Source: an uncultured Alphaproteobacteria bacterium (GTDB lineage Bacteria > Pseudomonadota > Alphaproteobacteria > Micropepsales > Micropepsaceae). Taken from it: a stretch of 64,000 nt of DNA. The notes under the pieces were generated by a model. That model did no database searches. It saw only the letters and a program-made list of their open reading frames with translations, and was not told the origin of the DNA. Shown here piece by piece: positions 18,145 through 20,269 of the stretch (positions within the stretch are counted from its first letter, which is position 1; each line of letters starts with the position of its first letter). Both the position numbers and the translations under genes were made by a program. The DNA lies in NCBI GenBank assembly GCA_903857685.1, contig CAIOFO010000019.1:289-64288 (forward strand), in the 5' to 3' direction.

Positions 18145-18603
18145 GTGCGCCAGCTTTACCGGCTCTACTACCGAAGCAGTCAAACGCCATCGATCGTTTC
18201 CGATCTTGACAGTGTTGTTCAGCAGATCGTGAAAAGCTCAATCCGGAACAACAAGGATGACGGATTGACCGGCCTGCTGCTCACCATCCAGGGCTGCTTT
18301 TTGCAGACGCTTGAGGGCCCGGTGGATTCAGTCCGGAATACATATGCGCGAATTTCCTGCGATCGGCGGCACAGGGACCCTCATATCATTTTCCAGGGTC
18401 CCGTTGAAAAGCGGTTATTCAGCGACTGGAACATGTGCGCCCGTTCTCTGGCTCCAACGGACAAGGCCATTTTGGACGTCATTAACGCGAAGGGGAAATT
18501 CAATCCGGCGTCACTGACCCCGCAAAGCGTCCACGACCTGCTCACCGCCGTCGCGAAAATTCAGCGCCGAACAGCTTTGGATACTCCCCTAACCGCCATC
18601 TAA
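18145..18603 (+). CDS. Stand-alone BLUF blue-light photoreceptor
   Basis: LYYRS (Tyr), SIRNN, LTGLL, FLQTLEG (Gln), DRRH, FSDWNM (Trp/Met); AAGGAG RBS before GTG. Confidence 0.9.
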   Translation: MRQLYRLYYRSSQTPSIVSDLDSVVQQIVKSSIRNNKDDGLTGLLLTIQGCFLQTLEGPVDSVRNTYARISCDRRHRDPHIIFQGPVEKRLFSDWNMCARSLAPTDKAILDVINAKGKFNPASLTPQSVHDLLTAVAKIQRRTALDTPLTAI

Positions 18604-18726: not shown

Positions 18727-18815
18727 GGCCCCGTGGCGGAACTGGTAGACGCACCGGACTTAAAATCCGTTGTTCCGAAAGGGACGTGTCTGTTCGACTC
18801 AGACCGGGGCCACCA
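18727..18815 (+). tRNA. tRNA-Leu (anticodon TAA)
   Basis: Acceptor GGCCCCG/CGGGGCC, D-loop ACTGGTAGAC, anticodon loop CTTAAAA, long variable arm, T-arm GTCTG-TTCGACT-CAGAC, encoded CCA. Confidence 0.95.
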
Positions 18816-18820
18816 TCTCC

Positions 18821-18867
18821 TAAAAAAAGAAAGGCCGGGCCTATCGCAAGCGACAGCCCGGCCTTTC
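18821..18867 (-). terminator. Rho-independent terminator, U-tract on minus strand (could also stop tRNA transcript)
   Basis: GAAAGGCCGGGC...GCCCGGCCTTTC 12-bp stem followed on minus strand by TTTCTTTTTTT. Confidence 0.8.
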
Positions 18868-18888
18868 GCATTGTCGTCGCTAGGACGC

Positions 18889-18957
18889 CTAGGCGTGGAC
18901 CCCGCGAATGTTGGAAATCCAGTTCCGGGCACCCCGGCTGAAATGACAATGAGACAC
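18889..18957 (-). CDS. Putative 22-aa peptide with an extended perfect Shine-Dalgarno
   Basis: AAAAGGAGGTGATCCA immediately before GTG; MSHCHFSRGARNWISNIRGVHA-TAG; terminator follows. Confidence 0.45.
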   Translation of the reverse strand: MSHCHFSRGARNWISNIRGVHA

Positions 18958-19045
18958 TGGATCACCTCCTTTTCAAGATTGTTGCCCCGGCAATATAGGG
19001 CGGGCGGGCGCGCTTGATAAGGGCGGTGCGTGCGGGGATGATGAA

Positions 19046-20269
19046 TTGATGGAAAATCTTTCGACAACCTGCGTGATCGCGGGCGGCGGCCCGGCCGGGA
19101 TGATGCTGGGCTATCTGCTGGCGCGGGCCGGGGTGGATGTCACGGTGCTGGAAAAGCACCAGGATTTCCTGCGCGATTTTCGCGGCGACACGGTACATCC
19201 CTCGACCCTGCAGGTGATGCATGAGCTGGGACTGCTGGAGGAATTCCTGAAGCTGCCCCATTCGCGCATCACCCGCGTGGGCATTGATATCGGCGACCGG
19301 CATTTCCAGTTTGGCGATCTCAGCCACCTGCCGACCGTTTGCAAGTTCATCGCCATGATGCCGCAATGGGATTTTCTGGATTTCCTGGCGGGCAAGGCCC
19401 GGCAATTTCCCAATTTTCACCTGCTGATGCAGACCGAGGCCAAGGACCTGTTGGCGCAGAATGACCGCATCGCCGGCATCGTCGCCACCGGTCCGCAAGG
19501 CCATCTGCAGATCAGGGCGGGGCTGACCGTGGCGGCCGACGGGCGCGGTTCCATCCTGCGCGACAAGTCGGGCCTGAAGGTCAATGACCTGGGGGCGCCG
19601 TTCGACGTGCTGTGGCTGCGCCTGCCGATGCAGCCGGGCGACCCGGTGGATGTGATCGGCCGGCTGCAGGGCGGGCAGATGTTCGTGATGCTGTATCGCG
19701 GCGATTACTGGCAATGCGCCCTGGTCATTCCCAAGGGCGCCCATGATGCGATCAAGGCGGAGGGACTTTCCAAATTCCGCGCCCGGCTGAAAGCCATTGC
19801 CGGTTTTGCCGCGGACCGGGTGGACCAGGCGATCACGGACTTCGACCAGGTCAAGCTCCTGACGGTGGCCGTCAACCGGCTGGAAGAATGGGCGCGGCCG
19901 GGCCTGCTGTGCATCGGCGATGCGGCGCACGCCATGTCGCCGGTGGGCGGCGTGGGCATCAACCTGGCGATCCAGGATGCGGTGGCGACGGCCAATATAT
20001 TGGGGCCGGTGCTGCAAAAGGGCGTGCCGAAATTCAGCGACCTGAAAAAGGTCCAGGCGCGGCGGATGTTTCCCACCCGGATCATCCAGGCATTCCAGCT
20101 TCTGGTGCAGAACCGTTTCCTGGAACCGGCGGTGCTGAAATCGGACCGCACGCCCAATCCGCCCTGGTTCCTGAAGCTGTTCGACCGCTATCCGCTATTG
20201 CGGCGGATTCCGGCGCGCTTCGTTGGCATGGGGCCGCGGCCCGAGCATGTGAAACTGGCTAAGAAATAA
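19046..20269 (+). CDS. FAD-dependent oxidoreductase/monooxygenase (UbiH-like family)
   Basis: GGGPAG, FRGDTVHP, AADGRGS, IGDAAHAMSPVGGVGINLAIQDA. Confidence 0.9.
   Translation: MMENLSTTCVIAGGGPAGMMLGYLLARAGVDVTVLEKHQDFLRDFRGDTVHPSTLQVMHELGLLEEFLKLPHSRITRVGIDIGDRHFQFGDLSHLPTVCKFIAMMPQWDFLDFLAGKARQFPNFHLLMQTEAKDLLAQNDRIAGIVATGPQGHLQIRAGLTVAADGRGSILRDKSGLKVNDLGAPFDVLWLRLPMQPGDPVDVIGRLQGGQMFVMLYRGDYWQCALVIPKGAHDAIKAEGLSKFRARLKAIAGFAADRVDQAITDFDQVKLLTVAVNRLEEWARPGLLCIGDAAHAMSPVGGVGINLAIQDAVATANILGPVLQKGVPKFSDLKKVQARRMFPTRIIQAFQLLVQNRFLEPAVLKSDRTPNPPWFLKLFDRYPLLRRIPARFVGMGPRPEHVKLAKK

What the first reader, a model, noticed from the sequence alone, without database searches (positions are those of the whole stretch)
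18821..18973. Tiny transcription unit with a 16-nt perfect match to the 16S rRNA 3' end
Seen: plus strand CTGGATCACCTCCTTT (18957-18972) equals the canonical 16S 3' terminus. On the minus strand this is AAAAGGAGGTGATCCA, placing GGAGG 7 nt before a GTG that opens a 22-codon ORF (MSHCHFSRGARNWISNIRGVHA), followed by a 12-bp terminator with a minus-strand U-tract that abuts the tRNA-Leu 3' end. No other gene in the window has an SD nearly this long. Inference, three options: (a) a highly translated micropeptide; (b) an RNA that traps 30S subunits through extreme SD pairing; (c) plus-strand read-through from the tRNA yielding an anti-SD decoy. I recall similar SD-plus-short-ORF units in other Alphaproteobacteria but cannot name a described family.
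Basis: partly seen in the sequence, partly recalled or inferred. Interest (0 to 1): 0.68.

Follow-up and report, generated by a model that had tools for sequence, protein, structure and literature searches.

The report
Known ribosome-docking small mRNA (rre/CC2171)
This is a real, self-contained gene of about 160 bases whose RNA matches the whole free tail of the ribosome's 16S rRNA in front of a 22-codon reading frame. It belongs to a family already published in alphaproteobacteria (Rfam CC2171, the "rre" small mRNAs) whose function is still unknown.

Summary
Plus-strand 18957-18972 is CTGGATCACCTCCTTT. This 16-mer occurs once in the 3.0-Mb genome and equals the 16S 3' end of two same-genus genomes.

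On the minus strand it is the ribosome-binding site of a stand-alone unit:
- an RpoD-type promoter (19021-18992)
- a 16-nt tail complement
- a GTG start codon and a 22-codon ORF
- a long terminator (18866-18822)

The unit gives a full-length match to Rfam RF01867, the Caulobacter sRNA CC2171 (53.7 bits, E 2e-10). That is below the curated cut-off of 75, but same-genus orthologues score up to 86. It also has the sequence hallmarks of the "rre" small mRNAs of Hahn et al. (PMC5711450). For rreB those authors showed strong 30S binding, weak translation and start-codon-dependent decay; the function is unknown.

In 89 homologues the start codon is always kept, and ORFs are mostly 18-35 codons. In the 40 closest, the stop codon sits at a fixed alignment position. 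An internal imperfect copy of the 16S tail can mask the binding site.

The conserved amino acids coincide with RNA helices, so I think the act of translation is selected and not the peptide.

The tRNA neighbour is not conserved, so the read-through decoy idea is unsupported.

Verdict: new member of a known kind.

The parts
19016..19021 (-). Predicted -35 box CTTATC. The scan reports TTATCA at 19020-19015.
   Evidence: One search found TTATCA-N17-TATATT. The same-genus alignment A1 shows a conserved CTTnnCAA block at this distance. Coordinates. The match to the alphaproteobacterial RpoD consensus CTTGAC-N17-CTATAT is from my memory.
18992..18998 (-). Predicted -10 box CTATATT
   Evidence: CTAnAtT is conserved in most same-genus homologues.
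18822..18985 (-). Predicted transcript of about 164 nt. The start (about 18985, give or take 2) is inferred from the -10 box. The 3' end is the U-tract.
   Evidence: The Rfam RF01867 match covers 18981-18832. The fold has MFE -67.7 kcal/mol with z -3.5 against shuffles. No transcript data could be obtained.
18957..18972 (-). 16-nt complement of the 16S rRNA 3' tail, AAAGGAGGUGAUCCAG. It contains the SD core GGAGG (18965-18969), and its last G is the first base of the start codon.
   Evidence: The computed duplex energy is -28 to -29 kcal/mol.
18889..18957 (-). Small ORF: GTG start, 22 codons, TAG stop at 18889-18891. Peptide MSHCHFSRGARNWISNIRGVHA.
   Evidence: Start and ORF are conserved in 89 homologues. 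The stop column is conserved in 40 aligned homologues.
18945..18951 (-). 5' strand CAUUGUC of the closing helix P1 (codons 3-5)
   Evidence: Rfam consensus structure. 91.4% of cells pair in alignment A2.
18925..18937 (-). Small hairpin CCGGG-GUG-CCCGG inside the ORF
   Evidence: The equivalent helix in relatives pairs in 74% of cells, with changes on both sides at 3 pairs.
18913..18923 (-). Internal imperfect copy of the 16S tail, ACUGGAUUUCC (compare 16S CUGGAUCACCUCC). It can pair with GG-U-GAUCCAGU of the ribosome-binding site and start codon, masking them.
   Evidence: The MFE structure uses this pairing. Helix columns 22-28 with 72-78 of A2 pair in 96.8% of cells, with compensatory AU/CG/UA changes at one pair and CG/UA at another. 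A partner sits at a fixed distance in 87 homologues.
18896..18903 (-). SD-like segment GGGGUCCA (GGAGGUCC in relatives). It can pair with the internal tail copy instead, which frees the real SD (the open form).
   Evidence: 75.5% of cells pair.
18869..18875 (-). 3' strand GACAAUG of the closing helix P1
18822..18866 (-). Intrinsic terminator: a long GC-rich hairpin (18866-18830) followed by CUUUCUUUUUUU. It lies tail-to-tail with tRNA-Leu.

Best explanation
The finding is the ribosome-binding site of a stand-alone small mRNA on the minus strand. It is a member of the alphaproteobacterial family catalogued as Rfam RF01867 (Caulobacter sRNA CC2171) and described functionally as rre ('ribosome-regulated expression') small mRNAs.

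Shown here by sequence and comparison:
- It has its own RpoD-type promoter and a transcript of about 164 nt that ends at a strong terminator.
- Its leader complements the whole single-stranded 3' tail of the lineage's 16S rRNA over 16 nt. The last of these bases is the first base of a GTG start codon.
- A 22-codon frame follows. Its start and stop positions are conserved across relatives.
- An internal imperfect copy of the 16S tail can pair with the 3' two-thirds of the binding site and the start codon. The 5' AAAAGGA is left over as a possible seed, though the fold of the full transcript pairs it with the 3' U-tail.

Inferred from the published rreB work (Hahn et al., PMC5711450):
- A free 30S subunit seeds on the exposed 5' bases and displaces the internal mask.
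- It forms a 13-16 bp duplex, computed at -20 to -29 kcal/mol, which holds the RNA on the 30S subunit.
- The over-long duplex and the GTG start make initiation and escape inefficient, so translation is weak.
- Ribosome engagement at the start codon promotes decay of the RNA.

My own inference is that the act of translating through the regulatory helices to a fixed stop is what is selected, not the peptide. The conserved residues (MSHCH, WI) are the codons of RNA helices.

The physiological role is unknown. I think a read-out or minor buffer of free 30S subunits is the most likely role.
For: Family match:
- full-length RF01867 match (model positions 1-159, 53.7 bits, E 2e-10). The Rfam consensus itself contains AAAGGAGGUGAUCCAGUGUCUCAUuGuCaU.
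- 19 same-genus genomes carry collinear homologues scoring 63-86 bits, 6 of them above the cut-off of 75.
- the family is found in 76 of 401 genomes of the class, in 56 of 294 genera.
- the 28-nt 5' block is identical in more than 120 species, including Methylobacterium, Brevundimonas and Bosea.

The 16S tail:
- same-genus 16S genes end in exactly this 16-mer.

The reading frame:
- in 89 homologues the start is GTG in 46, ATG in 37 and TTG in 6, and is never absent. Codon 2 is Ser in 86, using four synonymous codons. ORFs are 18-35 codons in 88 of them.
- the first in-frame stop falls at one alignment column (or 3 columns away) in 36 of 40 sequences. TGA is used 19 times, TAA 12 and TAG 9. Stops in the other two frames are scattered.

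The mask:
- the masking helix pairs in 96.8% of cells, with compensatory changes, and the partner sits at a fixed distance.
- the masked fold is -67.7 kcal/mol and the open fold -61.9, against -28 for the duplex with 16S.

Literature:
- (PMC5711450): rreB binds 30S, is weakly translated, and is stabilised when its start codon is replaced by a stop. [quoted passage not shown]
- CC2171 expression was shown by Northern blot in Caulobacter and Methylorubrum.
Against: - The Infernal score of this copy (53.7 bits) is below Rfam's curated gathering score of 75.
- No transcript, ribosome-binding or translation data exist for this organism.
- The promoter and transcription start are predictions.
- All mechanistic steps beyond sequence are borrowed from one study of rreB. 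That RNA encodes a different, 14-aa peptide, and I did not test whether it falls under RF01867.
- In this copy the mask lacks the CCUCC half that most relatives have (UUUCC instead). Part of the masked MFE comes from pairing of the leader with the 3' U-tail, which may not exist in the cell.
- The masking helix and the closing helix P1 cross each other. Whether they alternate or form a pseudoknot is unknown.
- Overexpression of rreB had no growth effect, so a ribosome-buffering role is unproven.
Confidence: 0.8

Rival explanations
1. It is a true micropeptide gene. The 22-aa peptide is the functional product, and the giant SD only sets its expression level.
For: - The start codon is kept in all 89 homologues, interchanging among GTG, ATG and TTG.
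- Ser at codon 2 uses four synonymous codons.
- The stop position is conserved, with all three stop codons used.
- Hahn et al. report that the peptides are conserved within clades.
Against: - The conserved residues map onto RNA helices. MSHCH is the P1 strand, LR and A are the small hairpin, and WI is the 16S-tail copy. In the other subfamily, EQP is GAGCAGCCU, again the tail copy.
- The positions between these residues vary freely.
- Peptides of different subfamilies are unrelated.
- There is no Pfam or NCBIfam match.
- Synthetic RreB and RreR are unstructured, and presumed overproduction of RreB gave no phenotype.
Confidence: 0.15
2. It is a trans-acting base-pairing sRNA. Its internal anti-SD-like segment (the 16S-tail copy) targets ribosome-binding sites of other mRNAs. 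The ORF and the SD complement would then be only parts of its fold.
For: - Rfam files the family as an sRNA.
- It has a structured body and a terminator with a U-tail.
- Most relatives carry an exposed-looking CCUCC or CCUCU segment.
Against: - This reading does not explain the invariant start codon, the fixed stop position or the 15-17 nt match to the 16S tail.
- In this copy the CCUCC half of the mimic is missing.
- The only experimental data place the related RNA on 30S subunits.
Confidence: 0.05
3. The functional molecule is the plus strand. Read-through from tRNA-Leu would yield an RNA that carries a copy of the 16S tail and acts as an anti-SD decoy.
For: - The plus strand does carry the 16S 3' end sequence, 140 nt after the tRNA.
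- The shared hairpin has only a weak U-run in the plus direction.
Against: - A convergent tRNA-Leu neighbour is present in only 3 of 52 homologous loci, all of the same genus; a fourth locus holds only a distant tRNA-Arg.
- The promoter, start codon, ORF, helices and U-tract are all conserved on the minus strand.
- The family sits in unrelated genomic contexts.
Confidence: 0.02
4. It is a chance match or a relic fragment of an rRNA operon.
For: None beyond the 16-nt identity.
Against: - About 3e-5 such matches are expected per window, and the match is unique in the genome.
- The flanks do not continue the 16S sequence. The 16S gene has GGGGAACCTGCGG before the 16-mer, whereas here it is CAATGAGACA.
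- The element is conserved across the class.
Confidence: 0.01

Closest known systems
Rfam RF01867, 'caulobacter sRNA CC2171'
   Same: - Full-length covariance-model match.
- Identical 5' block AAAGGAGGUGAUCCAGUGUCUCAUUGUCA.
- Same closing helix CAUUGUC/GACAAUG.
- Same terminator position.
- Same-genus orthologues exceed the family cut-off.

Expression of family members was shown by Northern blot in Caulobacter and Methylorubrum extorquens. The function and the inducing condition are unknown.
   Different: - This copy scores 53.7 bits, below the cut-off of 75. It is a compact variant that lacks the sub-hairpin between the stop codon and the closing helix.
- Rfam files the family as a non-coding sRNA, and its consensus structure does not include the masking helix. 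The comparison here shows a conserved reading frame.
rre small mRNAs: rreB (Bradyrhizobiaceae) and rreR (Rhodobacterales), Hahn et al., RNA Biol 2017;14:1353 (PMC5711450)
   Same: - Stand-alone RNA of about 165 nt.
- 16-17 nt perfect complement of the 16S 3' end whose last base is the first base of a GTG start.
- Very short ORF.
- The 3' part of the complement is buried in a conserved hairpin, leaving a few 5' bases free.
- rreB also lies next to a tRNA gene.
[quoted passage not shown]
   Different: - The peptides are unrelated and of different length: 14 aa for RreB and 18 aa for RreR, against 22 aa here.
- The complement is 16 nt here, not 17. An A replaces the G opposite the next 16S base.
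- I did not test whether rreB itself is homologous to RF01867 or only analogous.
- The paper mentions neither Rfam nor CC2171.
- 30S binding, weak translation and start-codon-dependent decay are shown only for rreB.
Leader-peptide attenuators (for example trpL)
   Same: A tiny ORF overlaps alternative RNA helices, and the position of the ribosome matters more than the peptide.
   Different: No gene lies downstream. The terminator ends the unit, and the next gene is a convergent tRNA. No regulatory codons are evident. The resemblance is conceptual only.

Membership tests
Rfam RF01867 (CC2171) | Significant, full-length match to the covariance model | tested here: met
   model positions 1-159 of 159, 53.7 bits, E 2e-10 to 2.8e-10. 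It is the only match in the genome.
Rfam RF01867 (CC2171) | Score at or above the curated gathering score (75 bits) | tested here: not met
   This copy scores 53.7 bits. The cut-off is a curation threshold, not a biological feature. Same-genus orthologues that align end to end with this copy score 63-86 bits, and 6 of them exceed 75.
Rfam RF01867 (CC2171) | Conserved 5' block and closing helix CAUUGUC/GACAAUG followed by a terminator | tested here: met
   (91.4% of cells paired). The 28-nt block is identical in more than 120 species.
rre small mRNAs (Hahn et al.) | [quoted passage not shown] | tested here: met
   One search gives the 16 nt. This assembly has no rRNA gene of its own.
rre small mRNAs (Hahn et al.) | Short ORF directly behind the complement, starting with GTG (rarely ATG) | tested here: met
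   22 codons with a GTG start. Conserved in 89 homologues with a fixed stop column.
rre small mRNAs (Hahn et al.) | Stand-alone transcript of about 165 nt with its own promoter and terminator | tested here: inconclusive
   The sequence predicts a conserved promoter, a terminator and about 164 nt.
rre small mRNAs (Hahn et al.) | The 3' part of the complement lies in a conserved hairpin, with a few 5' bases left single-stranded as a seed | tested here: inconclusive
   GG-U-GAUCCAGU pairs with ACUGGAUU-U-CC, so the hairpin half is met. The seed half is not shown: in the fold of the full transcript AAAAGGA pairs with the 3' U-tail (unpaired probability 0.03-0.20), a pairing that may not exist in the cell.
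rre small mRNAs (Hahn et al.) | Strong binding to 30S subunits, weak translation, and start-codon-dependent turnover | not testable with these tools
   Shown only for rreB of Bradyrhizobium.

The most novel reading that the evidence does not exclude
The family may be a ribosome-availability sensor, not a peptide gene or a classical sRNA. It would be a bistable RNA in which an internal copy of the 16S tail competes with the real tail of free 30S subunits. Selection would act only on the act of initiating and of terminating at a fixed point, so that the RNA's lifetime reports the pool of idle 30S subunits, or the RNA parks a fraction of that pool.

- the fixed stop column
- the coincidence of every conserved residue with an RNA helix
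- the three-part arrangement of SD, tail copy and SD-like segment
- the link between RF01867 and the rre class
Probability: 0.2. Interest if true: 0.65.

Novelty: new member of a known kind. Interest (0 to 1): 0.3.

Why it matters
For this window the finding matters little. It is one more copy, in an uncultured freshwater alphaproteobacterium, of an RNA that is already in Rfam and already characterised biochemically in Bradyrhizobium.

The class itself remains an open problem:
- It is widespread: about a fifth of sampled alphaproteobacterial genomes, and more than 120 species share an identical 28-nt block.
- It is strongly conserved.
- It pairs with the entire free tail of 16S rRNA.
- It still has no known function.

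The comparative results here narrow the hypotheses to test: an invariant start, a fixed stop, peptide conservation explained by RNA helices, and an internal tail copy with compensatory changes. They also link the Rfam entry to the rre literature.

Tried and rejected
- Rfam at gathering threshold found only the tRNA. The family appeared only in E-value mode.
- The peptide and three relatives gave no Pfam or NCBIfam match even at E 10.
- This genome has no rRNA genes, so relatives were used for the 16S end.
- The tRNA neighbourhood was tested as a conserved feature and rejected. A convergent tRNA-Leu lies near the element in 3 of 52 loci, and one other locus holds a tRNA-Arg about 1.2 kb away.
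- No second rre-like gene is in this genome. The two other sites that match 12 nt of the tail complement are not followed by a short ORF at the right spacing.
- A sequence look-up in earlier scan notes found nothing.
- Literature searches for follow-up work on rreB found only the original paper and citations without new function.
- The hairpin between the tail copy and the downstream SD-like segment has weaker support (75.5% paired, covariation not above the controls). I present it as an alternative form, not an established one.
- I did not run the large protein searches on the 22-aa peptide, because the answer would not change the verdict.

Full report
**1. The observation**

The plus strand reads CTGGATCACCTCCTTT at 18957-18972. 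On the minus strand this is AAAGGAGGTGATCCAG. GGAGG lies at 18969-18965, a GTG lies 7 nt later at 18957-18955, and a 22-codon ORF (MSHCHFSRGARNWISNIRGVHA) ends at a TAG at 18891-18889. tRNA-Leu(taa) lies at 18727-18815 on the plus strand.

A given 16-mer is expected about 3e-5 times in 64 kb. This one occurs once in the whole 2,995,451-base assembly. The next-longest complement of the 16S tail in the window is 9 nt.

The assembly contains no rRNA genes, so its own 16S end cannot be read. Two same-genus genomes have complete 16S genes (RF00177, model positions 1-1533). Both end ...GGGGAACCTGCGGCTGGATCACCTCCTTT and are followed by CTAAGGA.

There are small corrections:
- The terminator stem is about 17 pairs with one bulge, not 12.
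- Six bases separate the U-tract from the annotated tRNA end (18815).
- The unit extends upstream of the stated coordinates.

**2. What it is**

At Rfam's gathering thresholds only the tRNA is found. In E-value mode the minus strand at 18981-18832 matches RF01867, 'caulobacter sRNA CC2171', over the whole model (positions 1-159, 53.7 bits, cut-off 75, E 2e-10). The family consensus itself reads AAAGGAGGUGAUCCAGUGUCUCAUuGuCaU. This is the only copy in the genome.

Homologues are common among relatives:
- 19 of the 25 same-genus genomes searched (this one included) carry one collinear homologue each, scoring 63-86 bits in the relatives. Six of these are above the cut-off.
- Across the class, 76 of 401 genomes in 56 of 294 genera have a match at E 1e-3 or better, under strict filters.
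- The 28-nt block AAGGAGGTGATCCAGTGTCTCATTGTCA is identical in more than 120 species genomes. These include Methylobacterium, Methylorubrum, Bosea, Microvirga, Brevundimonas, Phenylobacterium, Rhizomicrobium, Roseiarcus, Rhodoblastus and Acetobacteraceae MAGs.

The copy here is a compact variant. It lacks a sub-hairpin between the stop codon and the closing helix, which explains the lower score.

**3. Literature**

CC2171 was found in a Caulobacter sRNA screen and confirmed by Northern blot in Methylorubrum extorquens. No function or inducing condition is known (bioRxiv 10.1101/2022.01.24.477521). It is also listed for Mesorhizobium (PMC5596092).

Notes from earlier agents of this scan pointed to Hahn et al., RNA Biol 2017;14:1353 (PMC5711450). 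I read that paper myself. It describes the following:
- rreB of Bradyrhizobiaceae is a 165-nt stand-alone mRNA next to a tRNA-Gly gene.
- It has a 17-nt perfect complement of the 16S 3' end that includes the first base of its GTG start, and a 14-codon ORF.
- It sits mainly in the ribosomal P100 fraction and co-sediments with 30S subunits.
- It is stabilised when the start codon is replaced by a stop.
- Overexpression has no growth effect, and the function is unknown.
- Only the five 5' nucleotides of the complement are predicted to be single-stranded. The rest lie in a conserved hairpin.
- Analogues with 16-17 nt of complementarity exist in Caulobacterales, Rhizobiales, Rhodobacterales (rreR, 18 aa) and Rhodospirillales. 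Their genomic context is not conserved.

The paper mentions neither Rfam nor CC2171. Searches for later functional work found none.

**4. Anatomy of this copy** (coordinates)

- Promoter: CTTATC (19021-19016), 17 nt, CTATAT (18998-18993). The scan reports it as TTATCA-N17-TATATT, and both boxes are conserved in the genus alignment.
- Predicted transcription start: near 18985.
- Tail complement: 18972-18957.
- Start codon GTG: 18957-18955.
- Closing helix P1: CAUUGUC (18951-18945) with GACAAUG (18875-18869).
- Small hairpin: 18937-18925.
- Internal tail copy ACUGGAUUUCC: 18923-18913.
- SD-like GGGGUCCA: 18903-18896.
- Stop codon TAG: 18891-18889.
- Terminator: 18866-18830, with the U-tract running to 18822.

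The 164-nt RNA folds to -67.7 kcal/mol, with z -3.5 against dinucleotide shuffles.

**5. Is the frame real?**

In 89 homologues from across the class:
- The codon 7 nt after GGAGG is GTG in 46, ATG in 37 and TTG in 6. It is never absent.
- The first base changes among G, A and T but is never C.
- Codon 2 is Ser in 86, spelled TCT in 71, TCC in 7, TCG in 5 and TCA in 3.
- ORF length is 18-35 codons in 88, with a median of 25.
- In the other two frames the first stop is scattered from 0 to 52 codons, or absent.

In a MAFFT alignment of the 40 closest RNAs (A2):
- The first in-frame stop falls at column 109 in 28 sequences and column 106 in 8.
- TGA is used 19 times, TAA 12 and TAG 9, and TGG never occurs there.
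- In the shifted frames the stops spread over the whole alignment.

The start and the stop are therefore under selection. These counts do not correct for shared ancestry.

**6. Peptide or RNA?**

The conserved residues coincide with RNA elements:
- MSHCH is the codons UCU CAU UGU CAU, which form the 5' strand of P1.
- 'LR' and 'A' are the two strands of the small hairpin.
- 'WI' is UGG AUC, part of the internal copy of the 16S tail.
- In a second subfamily (MSSE...EQP...), 'EQP' is GAG CAG CCU, part of GGAGCAGCCUCC. This is again an imperfect copy of the tail GGAUCACCUCC.

The residues between these blocks vary freely, and the peptides of the two subfamilies are unrelated. No Pfam or NCBIfam family matches. 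I infer that translation of the frame matters more than the peptide. This is an inference, not a demonstration.

**7. The mask**

For 87 homologues I computed the best duplex between the 18 nt around the SD and start and the downstream body:
- The duplex is more stable than with dinucleotide-shuffled bodies (mean z -1.57; 36% are below -2).
- In most homologues its partner sits about 34-44 nt after the start codon (CUGGAUCnnnGCCUCC type) or about 46-56 nt after it (GGAGCAGCCUCC type).

On A2:
- The helix GAUCCAG/CUGGAUC (columns 22-28 with 72-78) pairs in 96.8% of cells.
- Pair 27-73 is AU in 35 sequences, CG in 2 and UA in 1. Pair 26-74 is CG in 39 and UA in 1.
- P1 pairs in 91.4% of cells.
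- The mask and P1 cross each other. They either alternate or form a pseudoknot.

The alternative hairpin between the tail copy and the SD-like segment pairs in 75.5% of cells and has weak covariation support.

For this copy:
- The masked fold is -67.7 kcal/mol. Part of this comes from pairing between the leader and the 3' U-tail, which may not exist in the cell.
- The open fold with a free SD is -61.9 kcal/mol.
- The duplex with the 16S tail is -28 to -29 kcal/mol over 16 bp, and -19.8 kcal/mol over 12 nt.

30S binding would therefore easily open the mask. In this copy the mask lacks the CCUCC half present in most relatives.

**8. Neighbourhood**

A convergent tRNA-Leu(taa) lies near the element in only 3 of the 52 loci held with about 1.5 kb of flank, all in the same genus. 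One other locus has a tRNA-Arg about 1.2 kb away. Context is thus not conserved, as Hahn et al. also found. This removes support for a plus-strand read-through decoy.

No gene follows the unit on the minus strand, so it is not a leader of another gene.

**9. Verdict**

The unit is a member of RF01867 by homology. It also meets the sequence-level hallmarks of the rre small mRNAs that I could test, apart from the free 5' seed, which the fold of the full transcript does not show. Ribosome binding, weak translation and start-dependent decay are inferred from rreB and were not testable here.

The finding is real and correctly described, but it is a new member of a known kind whose function remains unknown.

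Noticed in passing
window 19014-19052: The divergent FAD-dependent monooxygenase gene (ORF 19046-20269) has a promoter-like site, TTGATA-N17-GATGAT. Its -35 box overlaps the -35 box of the small mRNA on the opposite strand, within the near-palindrome CTTGATAAG. The -10 box ends 7 nt before the ATG at 19049, so the mRNA may be leaderless.
   Followed up: no
window 18145-18603 (+): A 152-aa ORF just upstream of tRNA-Leu looks like a BLUF blue-light sensor domain protein. This is from my memory of the YRLIY...LEG signature. Another first-stage note also calls it a BLUF gene.
   Followed up: no
L109 and L142: The exact 28-nt alphaproteobacterial block also occurs in MAGs labelled Hydrogenophaga intermedia (a betaproteobacterium) and Mycobacteriaceae. 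These are probably binning contamination and not true occurrences outside the class.
   Followed up: no
window 18822-18866 and family consensus (A2 columns about 172-219): The 3' arm and tail of the terminator (CCCUUCUUU in relatives, CCUUUCUUUUUUU here) resemble the 3' end of 16S rRNA (CCUCCUUU). In the computed MFE they pair with the AAAAGGAGG leader. This may be only the usual A-tract/U-tract of a terminator.
   Followed up: partly
L009 compared with L015: One same-genus homologue has a frameshift at the CUGGAUC block that is restored further on, so its peptide again ends ...GVHAA at the usual stop. This anecdote favours selection on the frame and the stop.
   Followed up: partly
L050, L055, L059, L077: Some distant RF01867 hits have 18-codon ORFs. 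One of them (L050) has a GTG start and a 16-nt complement, so it may correspond to rreR of Rhodobacterales. The organisms' names are not available for these handles.
   Followed up: no
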